Position numbers and translations under genes: made by a program | Part shown: positions 5,342-10,649 of the stretch, in pieces | Layout of the letters: every line of letters starts with the position of its first letter | Numbering within the stretch: position 1 is the first letter of the stretch | Notes under the pieces: generated by a model | What the model saw: the letters and a program-made list of their open reading frames with translations, nothing else | The model's database searches: none | Told to the model about the DNA's origin: nothing | From: Thermoanaerobaculales bacterium | GTDB lineage: Bacteria; Acidobacteriota; Thermoanaerobaculia; Thermoanaerobaculales; Sulfomarinibacteraceae | Assembly (NCBI GenBank): GCA_048061535.1 | Contig: JBGMRN010000001.1 | Location: forward strand, 12,703-66,108 | Reading direction: 5' to 3' | Length of the DNA stretch: 53,406 nucleotides

Positions 5342-5397
5342 GGCGTTATCGTAACTCAAGATGAGCCCACGTTCGGGAAACCGGTATACTCTCGAGA

Positions 5398-6777
5398 ATG
5401 ATCCAAGGCAACCTGGACCGCCTCCACTTCGGGGACCTTCTGGAATGGCTCCAGATGGGTGGAATCAGCGGACGTCTGGTGCTCTTGGATGACTTCGGCC
5501 AGCGGCGTCTCGATTTTCTCGACGGGCGGATAGTCTATGTTTCCTCGACGGTGCCTGAAGAGAGGCTTGCCACCGTTCTTGCCAGACGGAAGCTGGTCCC
5601 GACCGACGAGCTGCGCAAGATCTTGGCCCTGGCGATACTCCGCCAGACCCTGTTCACCGATCTCTTGATCGCCAGAAGTGGGTTGGCGCCTGATGAACTG
5701 CAGCGCAATCTGATCGATCTCGCCGAGGCGATCACCAGCCGAGTCCTGTTCGCACCGAACATCCGGTTCGAACTCGACCCGGCGTATCCGGTCCGGGAAC
5801 TCCTCGGCCTCAGCCTCGACGTGGAACCGCGTCATCTACTGTTGGAAGCCGCACGTCGCACTGACGAAGGCCCGCTGTCCACCGAGCAAGAGGAGCGCCA
5901 CGACCTCCCGTTCACCGGTGAGGCGTTCGAGAGCTTCTTTTGGGATTTGGTGCGAGAGGGATTCACACGAGAGGAGCCGGTCGACGGCGAAGGTATGAAC
6001 GCCCTCCACAGTTTGATACGCGACATTGTCGGCACACTCGCGCAGTGGCTCGCCTCGAGCCCCGGCTTGGTACCGCTGCCTTCCGGCCAGAGTGAGGGAA
6101 TCGCGCGCGACCTTGGCCGTGAGCAGACGATTGGGTTGTTCGGATTGCCCCACACAACCTGGAACCAGATGGTGCTGGCTTGTTCGCTGCGCAGCAGCGA
6201 GCGACGTCGGCCTTTGAAGCTCAACCACCTGGAAGCGTACGCAACCGAACTCGACCTCTGGGAAGAGATGACGGGCAGCGAGTGCTGGCGTCGGCCCCAT
6301 GCCGACAAGCTGGATCGTCTGACGCACCGCGCGGCGGTGTTGTGGTCGCGCGGCGCGGCTGCTGCCGCCGTGCCGCTCGGAGTCGATCCGGAAACCGCAT
6401 CCCTGGCCGCCCACCTGGTCACCGTTCCCACCGATCTCGTGCTGTGGGTCCTCACAACGCTACCAGTTCCCCACCGCCACCTGCGCCAAGCCCTTCTGCG
6501 ACATCTTCCACGTCGGGTCGGCTCAAGCCTGGCCCGCCTGGCAGATTTCCCCGCAGCCATCCGTTATCTGTTCGATCCTCAAACGCCGACCCCGCTCGGC
6601 GTGTGCCTCCATCTCAGCCGTGAAAACCTCCCCTCCGCGTCAGCCTGGCCGCAGACTGTTCCCCGAGACGACGACAGCTTGCTGGAAATTGCCTCACCAG
6701 CCGCCCTCGCATTTGCAGCCGAAGCCGTCCGCGAAGCTCTCGAAGAAAGTCCGGACGACCAAGCCGTCAACAGGTGA
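5398..6777 (+). CDS. PATAN/DUF4388 domain protein with a long uncharacterised C-terminal region
   Basis: N-terminus MIQGNLDRLHFGDLLEWLQMGGISGRLVLLDDFGQRRLDFLDGRIVY matches the DUF4388/PATAN signature. The remaining roughly 350 aa have no domain I recognise. Confidence 0.7.
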   Translation: MIQGNLDRLHFGDLLEWLQMGGISGRLVLLDDFGQRRLDFLDGRIVYVSSTVPEERLATVLARRKLVPTDELRKILALAILRQTLFTDLLIARSGLAPDELQRNLIDLAEAITSRVLFAPNIRFELDPAYPVRELLGLSLDVEPRHLLLEAARRTDEGPLSTEQEERHDLPFTGEAFESFFWDLVREGFTREEPVDGEGMNALHSLIRDIVGTLAQWLASSPGLVPLPSGQSEGIARDLGREQTIGLFGLPHTTWNQMVLACSLRSSERRRPLKLNHLEAYATELDLWEEMTGSECWRRPHADKLDRLTHRAAVLWSRGAAAAAVPLGVDPETASLAAHLVTVPTDLVLWVLTTLPVPHRHLRQALLRHLPRRVGSSLARLADFPAAIRYLFDPQTPTPLGVCLHLSRENLPSASAWPQTVPRDDDSLLEIASPAALAFAAEAVREALEESPDDQAVNR

Positions 6778-6780
6778 AGC

Positions 6781-8964
6781 TCACGAATTCTCCTGCGGTA
6801 GAGCCATGGTGACCTCGGTGCCCTCGGCCATCTCACTGGCGATGGAAATGGTACCACCGTGATTCTCCATCACCCGTTTGGCGATGGTGAGCCCCAGACC
6901 GACACCCCTCGGTTTTCCGGTCAGCACGTTGCCGCCCTGCCAAAAGGCCTCGCTGACGTGGGGCAACTCCTTTTTGGGAATTCCCACTCCCGTGTCGGTC
7001 ACCCTGAGGAGGAGCCATGAGTCTTCACCGCGCATGACTCGCCGTACTTCGAGCTTGACCTCACCGCCGGTCTGGTTGAATTCGATGGCATTCTTGATCA
7101 CTGCCCGCAGCGCAGCCTCGATCGTCTCAGCCTCACAGAAGATTGTCTCGAGTCCGCTGGGAATGAGGACATGAAGCTGCACCTGGCGCTCACGCGCGAG
7201 GTCGCGGAGGGGAGCGATGGCGCGCCGGAAGAGATCCTCGGCCGGTACCGCGCGACGCTCGAGGTTGCTTTCGGTCTCGGCCAAAATGGACGCCTGAACA
7301 ATGCTCTGGATAATCTCGGAGAGCTTTTCCGACTCCTCGCGAATGATGGTGACAAAGCGAGCCCCTTTTTCGGCCGGTTCATCCTTGAACCGATCGAGGA
7401 TCTTGGCAGCGGTGACCAACGATGTCACCGGGGTTCGCAACTCGCTGGATATCCGTGTGATGAGCTCGTTCTTGACCTGATCCAGGGCGGAAAGGTCCTT
7501 ATATGCGTCGTTCAGAAGGGTGTTTTTCTCCGCCAGATCACTTGCCAGTCGTCCCGCCTCGTCGAGGCTCTTGCGCAACTCGGCTGTTTGTTCGCTCACT
7601 TGGCCCTCGAGGCTGCGGTTGAACTCCTGCACCTGCCTCCAGGCAAGGGCGTTGGTATAGCCCATCGCGGCGGCGGAACCGAGAACGGTCGCCAGCTGGA
7701 GATCATCCTCGTCGAGGGCAGCGCGGTCGCCGTCTCCATACGCGGTGAGGAGACCCACGACCTTCTCCTGGGCGATGAGGGGTACGATCAGGGCAGATGC
7801 AAAACCAGCGCTTTCGATGGCTGCAATCTGAAAGTTCTCTTCCTCATCCTCGATTTCGCGCGCCAACAACACGGGTTCTTGTTCGTTGAGCAATGTGGTC
7901 GCCGTGGTCTCACCGGCTTCGTCGGCGGTGCTGAGCAGAGGATCACGCTTGAAACCATGGACCACCGCCTCCCGCAGCTGCCCCGAACCCGGCACGATCA
8001 TCACCGCAGCCCCCTGGACCTGCAACTGCCGGATGGTGGTCGTGATCAACAAACGGAGCACGTTCGCCGGATCGCGCTCGTTGCTGACGGCCTTGCCGAA
8101 CTCGCTGATACTGGCCATCACCCGCAGCTGTCGTTCGAGTTGGCGACTGAGTATGTCGAGACGAGCGTTGAGGTCGGTCATCGCCATGTTGGCGCGAACC
8201 GCTTCACCGACCAGAGCATCCTCCCCAAGTGGTTGGGTTGCATCCGCCTGCCCGGACGGAAGGGTGATCTCAACGGCGTCGCTCGCCGGCGGATTTTCGT
8301 CTCGCATCACGTATGGCTGCATCGCCAGGCGCATCTGCTGTTGGAGCCGCTGGATGGCCTGAGGATTCGTGCCCACACCGAGCTTGTCGGCGACTGCCGC
8401 CAGGGTCCGCTCACCGACCACCGCAAAGGCATCGAGCACGCCGTCTCCGGTCACCGCCACCGACGGAAACGAAGGCAGATGATCCGGGTTGAGGGTGGCA
8501 TCCATCTCAGCCACGGACTGGACAGGGTCGAGGTCCCGCTTGTTGAAGAGAAAGATGACGGGGGTCCGCTCTCGATCGAGGCCGTTGGCCGCGAGATTCT
8601 CCCAGAGGTTCTCCAGCGACGCGCGGTTCGGTTCCTCCTGGCCCACCTGGGAATCGGCCACGAACACCACGCCGTCTGCGCCGGCAAGCACTGCCCGCCG
8701 CGTCGCGTTGTACTGCACCTGGCCGGGCACGGTGTAGAGCTGGAGCGCCAACCGGTAGCCGCGAATCCGGCCGAGATTGAGGGAAAGTAGATCGAAAAAG
8801 AGGGTCCGATCCGAGGCCGTGTTGAGAGAGTAGAGTTTTGTCCTGCGTTGTGGATCGGTCACTCGATGAATATGTTGGAGACAGGTCGTCTTGCCGCCCA
8901 GGGCAGGCCCGTAGTAGACGACCTTGATCTTGATCTGGCGGTACTGGTTGTCGAACTGAACCAT
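6781..8964 (-). CDS. Fusion protein: MglA-like small GTPase + GAF + HisKA (His to Ser) + HATPase_c
   Basis: N-terminus has GPALGGKTT (P-loop), LYTVPGQ (MglA-type switch II with Thr in place of Asp) and NKRDL (G4). The middle is GAF-like. The C-terminus has ISSELRTP (H-box without His), KNAIEFN (N-box), TDTGVGI (G1) and GVGLGLTIA (G2). The ATG at 8964 has GGGGGAG 10 nt upstream; the 56 codons up to 9132 look non-coding. Confidence 0.85.
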   Translation of the reverse strand: MVQFDNQYRQIKIKVVYYGPALGGKTTCLQHIHRVTDPQRRTKLYSLNTASDRTLFFDLLSLNLGRIRGYRLALQLYTVPGQVQYNATRRAVLAGADGVVFVADSQVGQEEPNRASLENLWENLAANGLDRERTPVIFLFNKRDLDPVQSVAEMDATLNPDHLPSFPSVAVTGDGVLDAFAVVGERTLAAVADKLGVGTNPQAIQRLQQQMRLAMQPYVMRDENPPASDAVEITLPSGQADATQPLGEDALVGEAVRANMAMTDLNARLDILSRQLERQLRVMASISEFGKAVSNERDPANVLRLLITTTIRQLQVQGAAVMIVPGSGQLREAVVHGFKRDPLLSTADEAGETTATTLLNEQEPVLLAREIEDEEENFQIAAIESAGFASALIVPLIAQEKVVGLLTAYGDGDRAALDEDDLQLATVLGSAAAMGYTNALAWRQVQEFNRSLEGQVSEQTAELRKSLDEAGRLASDLAEKNTLLNDAYKDLSALDQVKNELITRISSELRTPVTSLVTAAKILDRFKDEPAEKGARFVTIIREESEKLSEIIQSIVQASILAETESNLERRAVPAEDLFRRAIAPLRDLARERQVQLHVLIPSGLETIFCEAETIEAALRAVIKNAIEFNQTGGEVKLEVRRVMRGEDSWLLLRVTDTGVGIPKKELPHVSEAFWQGGNVLTGKPRGVGLGLTIAKRVMENHGGTISIASEMAEGTEVTMALPQENS

Positions 8965-9320
8965 CGCCCTGTCACTCCCCCGCGCGCCGCCAAGGCAGCG
9001 TCTCGTTGTCCCGGCACGCGCTGCGTTCCGCGTGTCGTTTTCCCCCGGGGGATGTCCTGCTGGATTCACTCCCAGGCATACCTCAGCCGGCTGCGTATCG
9101 GCTGAAGAAATCTGCTCGCCAGCGCTTCTCAATTCTAACCCGAAACGGCGCCGTGTGCAGGGTTGTGAAACGCTCGATCGGCGACCAAACCAACGACCAT
9201 ATTCGACACACCTCGGGAAAAGCTCTTTTGTAAAGACGAATCAGGTGCGGGCGCCATCCCTCGCCACGGAACACTGGAGAGAACTGCGGATTCATCTATA
9301 CTTCCAAATGGGGGTGGCTC

Positions 9321-9854
9321 ATGCGGATCGGCGGAATCCTGATGATCGGTTTACTGTTCGCGGCCGCAATCGTGCTCTATCTCAGCAGCCGCGACGCCAC
9401 CTCGAGCCTCGATGCGGTTGCAGCCGTGGCCGTCGATCTTCGCGAGGAAAACGTCGAGGGTCGTTCGCTGGACCGAGCAGCGGCGCGCACGATGGTGTCG
9501 GCCTTACAAACACTGCTCGATGAACCGGAGACCATAGCCGATCACCTCGACAGTTTGAAGGCCTTTTCGGCGACCGCCGCATCGTGGGCACAGGCCGCCG
9601 AATCGCCGAGCCCGGAACTGCATGCCGCGGTCTCCTTGAGGAGTGCCGCCGGGGAACTCCGGCAACACGCCCTCAGCCCCTCTCCAGTCCACCTCACCCG
9701 AGCCCGGCACTCTCTGGAACAGGCCAGAAACGCTCTCGCCGTCGAAGCTCCGGCTCCGGGGCTCGCCACAGACGCCGTCCGCGACCGCCTCGAGAACCTC
9801 CAGCGCTCACAGCAGGAGCGCTACCAGGAGGTCGCCGAGGAAATCAATCAGTAA
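9321..9854 (+). CDS. Hypothetical membrane-anchored protein
   Basis: ATG with an upstream GGGGGTGG. N-terminal TM helix (GGILMIGLLFAAAIVLYL) followed by an Ala/Leu-rich helical region. Confidence 0.5.
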   Translation: MRIGGILMIGLLFAAAIVLYLSSRDATSSLDAVAAVAVDLREENVEGRSLDRAAARTMVSALQTLLDEPETIADHLDSLKAFSATAASWAQAAESPSPELHAAVSLRSAAGELRQHALSPSPVHLTRARHSLEQARNALAVEAPAPGLATDAVRDRLENLQRSQQERYQEVAEEINQ

Positions 9855-10215
9855 GCTGCAGATCCTGCCAGAGATCGCGAGGGATATTGGTGTTCAATAG
9901 AGCGCCCGCGCCCAGGCGCTGAAGATCCGCAGCCACCATCGCAACCCACCGCTGAACCGCAGGGGTCCGCTCGACCGGGACCAGGGACCACAGGCGGACA
10001 ATTGTGCCCTCGTGGTGGGGTGCGATCTGGATCACGGGATGCTGCGGTCGAGCAAACTCCACCACGACACCTTCAACAAGGACCGCCTGTCCGTCCCGGC
10101 GCCGCCAGACCTGGTCCGTCTTGAGGACCGCCCGCCCCCAGCGGTGGACTCCCGCCGGCAATCCGTCGGCCACGCGTTCGAGATCGACACATTCCTCGAA
10201 GACCATGTGCGGCAT
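9844..10215 (-). CDS. Hypothetical protein, translationally coupled to yjbQ
   Basis: The ATG at 10215 overlaps the yjbQ TGA (TGATG). No domain recognised. Confidence 0.45.
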   Translation of the reverse strand: MPHMVFEECVDLERVADGLPAGVHRWGRAVLKTDQVWRRRDGQAVLVEGVVVEFARPQHPVIQIAPHHEGTIVRLWSLVPVERTPAVQRWVAMVAADLQRLGAGALLNTNIPRDLWQDLQLTD

Positions 10216-10649
10216 CAATCGGCCCCGCTGCTGTTACCAACGAACGAGAACACGACCCGGCGCTTCCGCGGACGCACGTCGCACTCGACGAGGACAATTT
10301 GCTGCCACGTGCCCAGGACGCAAACGCCGGCGAGGACCGGCAAGCTGAGCGATGGCCCGAGAATGGCCGCGCGAAGGTGTGAGAACCCATTCCCGTCGCC
10401 CCAACGAAGGTCGTGGTGATATGAGCGATCCGATGGCGCCAGGCGTTCGAGAGCTTCGTCGAAGTCGCGGACTGCGCCCGGCTCGTACTCTATAGTTGTG
10501 ATCGCCGCTGTGGAACCGGGAACAAAAACGGTGATCTGGCCGTCGATCGCCTCAATCCAAGTGAGCCATGCGCTGACCTCGGGCGTGAGATCGATGATAT
10601 GGCCATGGCCCTCGGTGGCGAGCTGGATTTCCCTGTGAATCACCTGCAT
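10215..10649 (-). CDS. yjbQ: YjbQ/UPF0047 family protein (secondary thiamine-phosphate synthase-like)
   Basis: MQVIHREIQLATEGHGHIIDLT...TTIEYEPG...HLRAAILGPSLSLPV is typical of YjbQ. The start is the internal ATG at 10649. Confidence 0.8.
   Translation of the reverse strand: MQVIHREIQLATEGHGHIIDLTPEVSAWLTWIEAIDGQITVFVPGSTAAITTIEYEPGAVRDFDEALERLAPSDRSYHHDLRWGDGNGFSHLRAAILGPSLSLPVLAGVCVLGTWQQIVLVECDVRPRKRRVVFSFVGNSSGAD

What the first reader, a model, noticed from the sequence alone, without database searches (positions are those of the whole stretch)
7420..7470. The kinase H-box lacks its phospho-acceptor histidine (ISSELRTP instead of SHELRTP)
The minus-strand codons read ATC TCC AGC GAG TTG CGA ACC CCG. 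The AGC at 7444-7446 encodes Ser exactly where HisKA domains carry the autophosphorylated His. The N, G1 and G2 boxes of the ATP-binding domain are intact. The transmitter is therefore probably not a canonical histidine kinase. It may be a pseudo-kinase scaffold, an ATP-dependent switch or a Ser-directed kinase, controlled by the fused GTPase and GAF domains.
Basis: seen in the sequence. Interest (0 to 1): 0.6.

Follow-up and report, generated by a model that had tools for sequence, protein, structure and literature searches.

The report
MglA-fused sensor kinase lacking its histidine
A conserved acidobacterial protein joins a Ras-like MglA switch to a sensor-kinase body whose phosphorylatable histidine is replaced by serine; relatives show that this histidine was lost at least three times, only in genomes where the neighbouring partner genes are gone, while the ATP-binding pocket stayed intact.

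Summary
Codon AGC at 7444-7446 (minus strand) encodes Ser507 of a 727-aa protein (6781..8964, minus strand). It lies in the column of the autophosphorylated His of HisKA kinases: ISSELRTP aligns without gaps to ISHELRTP of HK853. Contigs from two separate studies carry the same codon.

The protein is MglA-type GTPase + GAF + DHp + ATP-binding domain. It is a positional orthologue across the class Thermoanaerobaculia. Among 80 species-level orthologues the site is H 40, L 15, A 7, S 6, G 3, T 3, E 2, N 2, R 1, D 1. His was lost at least three times, and the site kept changing afterwards.

His-bearing genes usually sit in an operon with a receiver-kinase, a GAF-PP2C phosphatase and a single-domain receiver (36 of 40). 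No His-less locus has a receiver domain nearby (0 of 40), and the 53-kb window has none.

The N, G1, F and G2 boxes are kept in all members, and their core residues are invariant. The DHp and ATP-binding domains remain under purifying selection.

Best reading: a kinase-dead histidine pseudokinase that still binds ATP and is coupled to a GTPase switch. A Ser507 phospho-acceptor is unlikely. A phosphatase-only role is not excluded, because the ExxT motif is kept in this clade. This is a new variant of a known kind.

The parts
6781..8964 (-). Whole gene: 727-aa MglA-GAF-DHp-CA fusion protein. The ATG is at 8964 and the stop codon at 6781-6783.
   Evidence: Translation. All 79 orthologues start MVQFDNQ. 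Pfam domains. PDB matches.
8380..8964 (-). MglA-type small GTPase domain (aa 1-195). It carries the P-loop GPALGGKTT, Arg53, the switch II motif TVPGQ and NKRD.
   Evidence: phmmer to M. xanthus MglA gives E=1.7e-51. Foldseek TM 0.86-0.91 to MglA structures. The motifs are kept in nearly all orthologue clusters and their core residues are invariant in 79 species. dN/dS is 0.03-0.22.
8071..8379 (-). Linker (aa 196-298): a short helix, a disordered stretch (220-247) and a long helix leading into the GAF domain.
   Evidence: AlphaFold2 secondary structure and pLDDT. This part has the highest dN/dS in the protein.
7711..8070 (-). GAF domain (aa 299-418).
   Evidence: Pfam GAF and GAF_2, E about 3e-11. 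Model.
7486..7710 (-). Signalling helix (aa 419-493), continuous with DHp helix alpha-1.
   Evidence: The AlphaFold2 model has a single helix over residues 419-525.
7279..7485 (-). DHp / HisKA domain (aa 494-562).
   Evidence: Pfam HisKA, 32.6 bits. Alignment to HK853. dN/dS is 0.11 between the window and L001.
7429..7452 (-). H box ISSELRTP (aa 505-512). Ser507 (AGC, 7444-7446) sits at the phospho-His column. Glu508 (+1), Thr511 (+4) and Pro512 (+5) are retained.
6784..7254 (-). Catalytic ATP-binding (HATPase_c) domain (aa 571-727). N box at 7072-7101, G1 at 6976-7002, F at 6928-6951 and G2 at 6880-6909.
   Evidence: Pfam HATPase_c, E=1.2e-22. N625, D657, G659, G661, G687, G689, G691 and L692 are invariant in 79 orthologues. 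dN/dS is 0.11-0.30 in His-less pairs.
5398..6777 (+). Convergent neighbour: a 459-aa protein with an N-terminal PATAN/DUF4388 domain. Its stop lies 3 nt from the fusion gene's stop. It is a possible but unproven partner.
   Evidence: Pfam DUF4388, E=4e-15. It is adjacent and convergent in 27 of 39 His-less loci. In His-bearing loci it lies beyond an intervening PP2C-REC-epimerase block.

Best explanation
The gene encodes a histidine pseudokinase fused to a GTPase switch.

The ancestor was a working MglA-GAF histidine kinase. It sat in an operon with a receiver-kinase upstream and a GAF-PP2C phosphatase plus a single-domain receiver downstream. In the window's lineage those partner genes were deleted. 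The phospho-acceptor His then became dispensable and was replaced, here by Ser507. The protein therefore can no longer autophosphorylate on the canonical site or feed a phosphorelay.

The rest of the transmitter is kept by selection. This includes the dimerising DHp hairpin and a catalytic domain with a complete ATP-binding pocket. So it still does something.

My inference is that it serves as a dimeric, ATP-binding and GAF-ligand-binding regulatory body. That body would set, or read, the GTP/GDP state of the fused MglA domain, which would then be the real output.

Shown: the missing His, its recurrent loss, the association with partner loss, the retained ATP-binding motifs and purifying selection. 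Inferred: no autokinase activity, ATP binding, and coupling to the GTPase.
For: 1. Ser507 is in the phospho-His column.
2. Among 80 positional orthologues the site is H 40, L 15, A 7, S 6, G 3, T 3, E 2, N 2, R 1, D 1. The tree needs at least 3 losses of His and 17 state changes, and sister species differ (A/S, D/N, T/G, E/A).
3. His-bearing loci carry REC-HisKA-HATPase, GAF-SpoIIE and REC genes overlapping or abutting the fusion gene.
4. A REC profile hits 36 of 40 His-bearing loci, 0 of 39 His-less loci and nothing in the 53-kb window.
5. Intermediate states exist. L003 has the window's gene order but still has His. L018 has His plus truncated PP2C and REC remnants.
6. Column entropy rises in His-less members mainly in DHp (0.97 to 1.57). 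The rise is strongest at H507, E508, T511 and T514. It is unchanged in MglA (0.71/0.76) and GAF (1.63/1.54).
7. The N, G1 and G2 core residues are invariant in all 79 orthologues. dN/dS in His-less pairs is 0.11-0.30 for CA and 0.07-0.43 for DHp.
8. The model matches HK853, DivL and MglA folds.
Against: - No biochemistry exists. ATP binding and the lack of autokinase activity are inferred from sequence.
- The association of His loss with partner loss rests on only three phylogenetically independent contrasts. All three go the same way, but the sign test cannot reach significance.
- In the window's own 18-species clade the +1 acid (18/18) and the +4 Thr (17/18) are kept. This could mean a catalytic phosphatase role survives, rather than a purely non-catalytic one.
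- The whole genome could not be searched for orphan receivers or MglB.
- The AlphaFold model has pTM 0.37, so it says nothing about contacts between the GTPase and the kinase body.
Confidence: 0.6

Rival explanations
1. Phosphatase-only transmitter. The protein has lost kinase activity but still docks and dephosphorylates a phosphorylated response regulator encoded elsewhere in the genome. It would use the retained E508-x-x-T511 motif of HisKA phosphatases.
For: - In the window's 18-species clade the +1 residue stays acidic, with E-to-D exchanges (18/18), and the +4 residue stays Thr (17/18). In 103 His-less clusters the figures are 103/103 and 100/103, although the His site itself varies among S, L and G.
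- Helix alpha-1 after the H box (PVTSLxTAAKI) is highly conserved.
- From my own knowledge, unverified here: some His-substituted HisKA kinases (EnvZ H243V) are reported to keep phosphatase activity.
- PMC12963549 cites the D/ExxT/N motif as crucial for HisKA phosphatase activity.
Against: - No receiver domain lies within 53 kb in the window or within about 8 kb in any of the 39 His-less loci.
- In the other 22 His-less species the motif decays (acid 8/22, Thr 3/22), yet the protein and its ATP pocket are still conserved. Phosphatase activity therefore cannot be the function that keeps the family.
- A phosphatase would not need an invariant ATP pocket.
Confidence: 0.22
2. Re-targeted kinase. 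The intact ATP-binding domain phosphorylates Ser507 itself, or a Ser/Thr on another protein or on the fused GTPase. This would resemble GHKL-fold serine kinases (SpoIIAB/RsbW, PDK/BCKDK) and plant phytochrome or ethylene-receptor kinase-like domains.
For: - The ATP-binding motifs are invariant and the domain is under purifying selection despite loss of His.
- Ser recurs at the site in four separate lineages. The sister species L024 and L029 use the two unconnected Ser codon families, AGC and TCG.
- The ancestral operon contains a PP2C-type Ser/Thr phosphatase.
Against: - The site is Leu in the sister clade (15 species, 96 clusters) and Ala or Gly elsewhere. None of these can accept phosphate, yet the rest of the protein is equally conserved.
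- The site flips between sister species.
- The PP2C gene is absent from all His-less loci.
- No conserved alternative acceptor was identified.
Confidence: 0.1
3. Artefact or decaying gene. The Ser would be a sequencing or assembly error, or the transmitter a relic drifting towards a pseudogene.
For: Only one point speaks for it: the DHp domain is more variable in His-less members.
Against: - The same codon appears in contigs from two studies.
- Ser is present in the six closest orthologue clusters.
- The 727-aa frame is open and the gene length is conserved in 79 species.
- dN/dS is 0.07-0.43 in DHp and 0.11-0.30 in CA.
- The ATP-pocket residues are invariant.
Confidence: 0.02

Closest known systems
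DivL of Caulobacter crescentus (histidine pseudokinase; PDB 4q20; PMC4211667)
   Same: - A HisKA-type DHp plus CA fold with the phospho-acceptor His replaced (Tyr550 in DivL).
- Conserved in a whole lineage.
- An N-terminal sensor-type domain joined through a helix.
- The model superposes on DivL with TM 0.74-0.80, and phmmer finds DivL at E=2.7e-18.
   Different: - DivL keeps one replacement residue (Tyr) almost throughout. Here the site is hypervariable.
- DivL binds ATP weakly and its pocket is occluded. Here every ATP-binding motif is intact and its core residues are invariant.
- DivL senses the phosphorylated receiver DivK. No receiver is near any His-less member here.
- DivL has PAS domains and no GTPase.
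PsmA of Streptomyces (hybrid histidine pseudokinase; PMC12963549)
   Same: The H-box His is replaced by a residue that varies between species (E, D, Q, V, Y), while the following residues stay conserved. Its function does not depend on phosphorelay.
   Different: - PsmA's ATP-binding motifs are degenerate.
[quoted passage not shown] Here the ATP motifs are intact, and the window's clade keeps ExxT.
- PsmA has no GTPase domain.
MglA of Myxococcus xanthus / Thermus thermophilus (polarity GTPase)
   Same: The N-terminal 195 aa match at E=1.7e-51, with about 45-50% identity by Foldseek. The P-loop, Arg53, TVPGQ (Thr in place of the Ras Asp) and NKRD are all present.
   Different: - MglA is a stand-alone protein of about 195 aa, governed by the Roadblock GAP MglB and by RomR/RomX.
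- Here the domain is the N-terminus of a 727-aa kinase-like protein.
- No Roadblock gene was found among the scanned neighbours.
Conservons / actinobacterial G protein systems (CvnA kinase, CvnB roadblock, CvnC, CvnD GTPase, plus or minus CvnF GAF protein; PMC4316618, PMC13343842)
   Same: They combine an MglA-family GTPase with a histidine-kinase-like protein and, in some systems, a GAF protein that stimulates the kinase's ATPase. No response regulator is part of the conservon.
   Different: - The components there are separate proteins and include a Roadblock GAP and a CvnC GEF.
- CvnA autophosphorylates.
- Conservons are restricted to Actinomycetota.
- Here GTPase, GAF and kinase body are one polypeptide, the His is lost, and the host is an acidobacterium.
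ROCO proteins (Roc GTPase, COR dimeriser, kinase; for example LRRK2). This is a functional analogy from my own knowledge.
   Same: The order is a Ras-like G domain, then a dimerisation device, then a kinase-fold domain, all in one chain. This suggests cross-talk between the nucleotide switch and the kinase fold within a dimer. There is a weak Pfam Roc hit (E=0.071).
   Different: The dimeriser and the kinase fold are unrelated (DHp and GHKL rather than COR and eukaryotic protein kinase). The analogy was not tested.

Membership tests
Functional HisKA-type sensor histidine kinase | DHp (HisKA) four-helix-bundle domain | tested here: met
   Pfam PF00512 scores 32.6 bits against a cut-off of 26.9. 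The model has a helical hairpin over residues 419-525 and 531-562. Foldseek TM to HK853 is 0.76.
Functional HisKA-type sensor histidine kinase | Phospho-acceptor His in the H box | tested here: not met
   Ser507 aligns to His260 of HK853. The same column is His in 40 orthologues. No His lies nearby.
Functional HisKA-type sensor histidine kinase | ATP-binding HATPase_c domain with N, G1, F and G2 boxes | tested here: met
   PF02518, E=1.2e-22. The motifs are present, and their core residues are invariant.
Functional HisKA-type sensor histidine kinase | Cognate receiver-domain partner | tested here: inconclusive
   The 53-kb window has no REC domain and none of the 39 His-less loci has one. The rest of the genome could not be searched.
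Functional HisKA-type sensor histidine kinase | Autophosphorylation and phosphotransfer activity | not testable with these tools
   This needs a gamma-32P-ATP assay.
Histidine pseudokinases (the DivL / PsmA kind) | Histidine-kinase fold retained while the acceptor His is substituted | tested here: met
Histidine pseudokinases (the DivL / PsmA kind) | Conserved under purifying selection, not a decaying gene | tested here: met
   dN/dS in His-less pairs is 0.07-0.43 for DHp and 0.11-0.30 for CA. The full-length frame is open in 79 species.
Histidine pseudokinases (the DivL / PsmA kind) | No autokinase activity; function independent of phosphorelay | not testable with these tools
   This is inferred from the loss of His, the relaxation of the +1 and +4 columns and the absence of receivers.
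MglA family of Ras-superfamily GTPases | G1 P-loop, intrinsic Arg in switch I, G3 TxPGQ with Thr in place of Asp, and G4 NKxD | tested here: met
   GPALGGKTT, DRTLFFD, YTVPGQ and NKRD are present. The alignment to MglA structures gives E=1.7e-51. The motifs are kept in nearly all clusters and their core residues are invariant in 79 species.
MglA family of Ras-superfamily GTPases | Stand-alone single-domain protein of about 195 aa | tested here: not met
   The domain is the N-terminus of a 727-aa fusion protein.
MglA family of Ras-superfamily GTPases | Cognate MglB (Roadblock/LC7) GAP | tested here: inconclusive
   About 25 neighbouring ORFs between 363 and 20495 gave no Robl_LC7 hit. The rest of the window and the genome were not searched.
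Conservon / actinobacterial G protein system | Four-gene operon cvnA-D with a Roadblock (CvnB) and a CvnC protein | tested here: not met
   The neighbours are housekeeping genes plus a PATAN protein. No Roadblock gene is among them. The host is Acidobacteriota.

The most novel reading that the evidence does not exclude
The kinase-dead but ATP-binding DHp-CA dimer, together with the GAF domain, acts as a built-in regulator of the fused MglA domain. It would work as a GAP- or GEF-like device, or by nucleotide-dependent dimerisation. This would replace the MglB and RomR/RomX logic of known bacterial polarity GTPases. The family would then be a bacterial counterpart of ROCO/LRRK-type proteins (G domain, dimeriser, kinase fold). 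It would also have been caught in the transition from a phosphorelay kinase to a pure G-protein switch, with living intermediates.
Probability: 0.25. Interest if true: 0.75.

Novelty: new variant of a known kind. Interest (0 to 1): 0.55.

Why it matters
Histidine pseudokinases are known from only a few studied cases, such as DivL and PsmA, and those have weak or degenerate ATP sites.

This family offers three new things:
- A pseudokinase whose ATP pocket is fully preserved.
- A covalent link between that pseudokinase and a Ras-like MglA switch.
- A natural series within one set of positional orthologues. It runs from a working kinase with its partner genes, to a kinase whose partners are lost or reduced to fragments, to His-less forms that either keep or have lost the phosphatase motif.

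This makes two questions directly testable by comparing orthologues. What does a kinase body do once phosphotransfer is gone? How does a bacterial G domain talk to a two-component core?

The paper library I searched held no study of this fusion.

Tried and rejected
- **Stand-alone mglA upstream.** I suspected one because matches began about 700 nt upstream in many loci. tblastn showed that the extra match is the kinase half of a separate REC-HisKA-HATPase gene, not a second MglA.
- **ORFs opposite the PATAN gene.** The ORFs at 5832..6560 and 5356..5835 (minus strand) are spurious. The real gene there is 5398..6777 (plus strand), the PATAN protein.
- **PATAN as a specific partner.** Its adjacency in His-less loci results from deletion of the PP2C-REC-epimerase block. 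In His-bearing loci it lies further downstream, and the whole region is syntenic. Adjacency alone is therefore weak evidence.
- **MglB/Roadblock.** None was found among the scanned neighbours. orf124 (9844..10218, minus strand) is conserved upstream but has no family.
- **Whole-genome search.** A search for orphan receivers, MglB or a His-bearing paralogue was not possible because the genome search tool was shut.
- **Statistics of the association.** Fisher's test on His against partner genes gives p = 2.5e-18, but it ignores phylogeny. Independent contrasts give only 3 pairs, so I do not claim statistical proof.
- **Inter-domain contacts.** The AlphaFold2 monomer has pTM 0.37, so the domain arrangement is not interpretable.
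- **Literature.** Searches for a described MglA-kinase fusion found nothing relevant.
Full report
**The observation**

The minus strand of 7429..7452 reads ATC TCC AGC GAG TTG CGA ACC CCG, which is ISSELRTP. The gene is 6781..8964 on the minus strand. The long ORF can be extended to a TTG at 9132, but all 79 orthologues begin MVQFDNQ at the ATG at 8964. This gives a 727-aa product in which AGC 7444-7446 is Ser507.

Pfam finds HisKA above its cut-off (32.6 against 26.9 bits), HATPase_c (E=1.2e-22) and GAF. phmmer aligns the H box without gaps to HK853: ISSELRTP to ISHELRTP, whose His is the phospho-acceptor His260. The N, G1, F and G2 boxes are present.

Assembled contigs from two runs of different studies carry the same codon with no differences. 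One of those runs may be the sample the window was assembled from. The six closest orthologue clusters also have Ser.

**What the protein is**

The N-terminal 195 residues are a full MglA-type GTPase. The match to M. xanthus MglA structures is E=1.7e-51, and the P-loop, Arg53, TVPGQ and NKRD are all present.

An AlphaFold2 model built on 79 orthologues has mean pLDDT 81 and pTM 0.37. It shows the following parts:
- the G domain;
- a partly disordered linker;
- a long helix leading into the GAF domain;
- the GAF domain (residues 299-418);
- one continuous helix over 419-525 (signalling helix plus DHp alpha-1, which carries Ser507);
- DHp alpha-2;
- the catalytic domain.

Foldseek matches the parts to HK853 (TM 0.76), to MglA (0.86-0.91) and to the pseudokinase DivL (0.74-0.80). 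The low pTM means the arrangement of the domains relative to each other cannot be read from the model.

**The family**

A word-indexed search gave 120 full-length clusters at 63% identity or more. A scan of one genome per species found relatives in 321 species, and 80 loci were kept. Almost all are Thermoanaerobaculia (Acidobacteriota) from sediment, marine and groundwater metagenomes.

The gene sits in conserved synteny: ProDH, ComF, UPF0047, orf124, orf177, the fusion gene, PATAN, RimK, ferritin, a 695-aa protein and TyrRS. The sequences compared are therefore positional orthologues.

More distant MglA-x-kinase fusions (28-36% identity) also exist, and most of them keep the His.

**The histidine column**

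In the 120 clusters the site is L 96, H 17, S 6 and G 1. In 80 species-level orthologues it is H 40, L 15, A 7, S 6, G 3, T 3, E 2, N 2, R 1 and D 1.

On a maximum-likelihood tree rooted with four His-bearing outgroup fusions, His was lost at least three times, and the site needs 17 state changes in all. Sister species differ: A/S in L077/L079, D/N in L040/L047, T/G in L041/L044 and E/A in L022/L025.

The window and L001 (Ser) form the sister group of a Leu clade plus one Gly species. Together they make one well-supported His-less clade of 18 species (support 100).

Once His is gone, the column is largely free to vary. This argues against Ser507 being a dedicated phospho-acceptor.

One detail points the other way. 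L024 and L029 are sisters that use the two unconnected Ser codon families, AGC and TCG. This single case hints at a local preference for Ser.

**Loss of the partner genes**

In His-bearing loci the fusion gene lies inside a signalling operon:
- REC-HisKA-HATPase (about 374 aa) ends about 25 nt upstream or overlaps the fusion gene's start.
- GAF-SpoIIE/PP2C (about 502 aa) follows the fusion gene in many of these loci.
- A single-domain receiver (about 124 aa) comes after that.

tblastn with these partners found them beside 36 of 40 His-bearing genes and beside none of the 40 His-less genes. A receiver profile built from 44 of these sequences gave the same split: 36 of 40 His-bearing loci, 0 of 39 His-less loci, and no hit at E up to 10 anywhere in the 53-kb window.

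Intermediate states exist. L003 has exactly the window's gene order (fusion gene and PATAN gene convergent) but keeps ISHELKTP. L018 keeps His and has a 119-aa PP2C fragment and a 66-aa receiver C-terminal fragment downstream. The likely order is therefore partner loss first and His loss later.

A caveat applies. The raw association (Fisher p=2.5e-18) ignores shared ancestry. Only three phylogenetically independent contrasts exist. All three agree, but they are too few for significance.

**What is relaxed and what is kept**

| Domain | Column entropy, His-bearing | Column entropy, His-less |
|---|---|---|
| MglA | 0.71 | 0.76 |
| GAF | 1.63 | 1.54 |
| DHp | 0.97 | 1.57 |
| CA | 1.17 | 1.40 |

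The DHp domain therefore loosens clearly and the CA domain only slightly. The columns that loosen most are H507, E508 (+1), T511 (+4), T514, I522 and F537. These include the kinase acid (+1) and the phosphatase Thr (+4); the others are, from my own knowledge, likely receiver-contact positions, which I did not test.

The ATP-pocket residues N625, D657, G659, G661, G687, G689, G691 and L692 are invariant in all 79 orthologues. Pairwise dN/dS in close His-less pairs is 0.03-0.22 for MglA, 0.07-0.43 for DHp and 0.11-0.30 for CA. For the window against L001 it is 0.07, 0.11 and 0.11. The transmitter is thus not decaying. It has lost phosphotransfer constraints but keeps a selected function that involves ATP binding.

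The window's own clade has a nuance. The +1 residue stays acidic, with E-to-D exchanges (18/18 species, 103/103 clusters). The +4 residue stays Thr (17/18 species, 100/103 clusters). In the other 22 His-less species both decay: acid in 8/22 and Thr in 3/22. A residual phosphatase activity, or a structural role for these residues, therefore cannot be excluded for this protein.

**Mechanism**

I commit to this reading: the protein is a kinase-dead histidine pseudokinase, and it cannot autophosphorylate at the canonical site. Its DHp-CA dimer still binds ATP. Together with the GAF domain, it serves as the regulatory body of a GTPase switch whose output is the MglA domain.

The missing His, the recurrent loss, the partner loss and the retained pocket are shown. 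ATP binding, the lack of autokinase activity and the coupling to the GTPase are inferred.

The rivals are:
- a phosphatase-only transmitter for a distant receiver (0.22);
- a re-targeted Ser/Thr kinase or Ser507 autophosphorylation (0.10);
- an artefact or decaying gene (0.02, effectively refuted).

**Comparison with known systems**

- **DivL** (Tyr in place of His) and **PsmA** (a variable residue in place of His) are the closest known kind. Both have weak or degenerate ATP sites and no GTPase.
- **Conservons** of Actinomycetota pair an MglA-family GTPase with a kinase-like protein, sometimes with a GAF accessory protein, and have no response regulator. There the components are separate proteins, they include Roadblock and CvnC partners, and the kinase is active.
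- **The study of prokaryotic Ras-like GTPases I consulted** (PMC4316618) concentrated on small single-domain GTPases and does not mention fusions of this kind.
- **The held paper library** contained no description of this fusion.

I file this as a new variant of a known kind: a histidine pseudokinase with an intact ATP pocket, fused to an MglA switch.

**The PATAN neighbour**

The convergent 459-aa PATAN/DUF4388 gene (5398..6777) is adjacent in 27 of 39 His-less loci. In His-bearing loci it lies beyond the PP2C-REC-epimerase block or is absent from the flank. The adjacency therefore arose by deletion within a syntenic region. PATAN-MglB genomic links are reported in the literature (PMC4316618). 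A functional link here is only a lead.

**Earlier notes of this scan**

Earlier notes on relatives in other genomes reached similar conclusions: a His-less family whose older members are ordinary kinases, with receivers replaced by PATAN neighbours. I used them only as leads. The counts, the tree, the partner analysis and the selection tests reported here were all made here.

**Limits**

- The genome-wide search tools were shut. Orphan receivers, MglB or paralogues elsewhere in the genome could therefore not be checked.
- Only 80 of the 321 species with a relative were analysed.

Noticed in passing
L018:10278-10828: Downstream of a His-bearing orthologue lie a 119-aa fragment of the GAF-PP2C gene and a 66-aa C-terminal fragment of the receiver gene. 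The receiver fragment lacks the N-terminal part that would hold the phospho-Asp region. These look like partner genes caught in decay.
   Followed up: partly
L024 and L029, codon aligned to window 7444-7446: These two sister species both have Ser at the former His site but use the unconnected codon families AGC and TCG. This hints at some local preference for Ser, or at passage through Thr, Ala or Cys.
   Followed up: no
window 8965-9320, compared with L001:2897-3868 and L004:7000-7905: Relatives carry a gene for a protein of about 300-330 aa with a hydrophobic N-terminus, possibly a signal peptide (...AQLSADWMIPAAAH...), between orf177 and the fusion gene. The window lacks it and has only about 356 nt there.
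   Followed up: no
window 7171-8790 (+) and 5832-6560 / 5356-5835 (-): Long open frames lie opposite real genes (539, 242 and 159 aa). They are by-products of the high G+C content and have no family hits. The real genes are the fusion gene (minus strand) and the PATAN gene (plus strand).
   Followed up: yes
window 9844-10218 (-): A 124-aa ORF with no family match is conserved just upstream of the fusion gene, on the same strand, in 65 of 80 related loci. Its size is in the range of Roadblock proteins, but no Robl_LC7 similarity was detected.
   Followed up: partly
P0123, P0128, P0141, P0146, P0155, P0182 (distant MglA-x-kinase fusions): Outside the Thermoanaerobaculia orthologue group, some fusions at 28-53% identity also lack the His (D, E, Q, T, E and S respectively). 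His loss therefore seems to recur in the wider superfamily.
   Followed up: no
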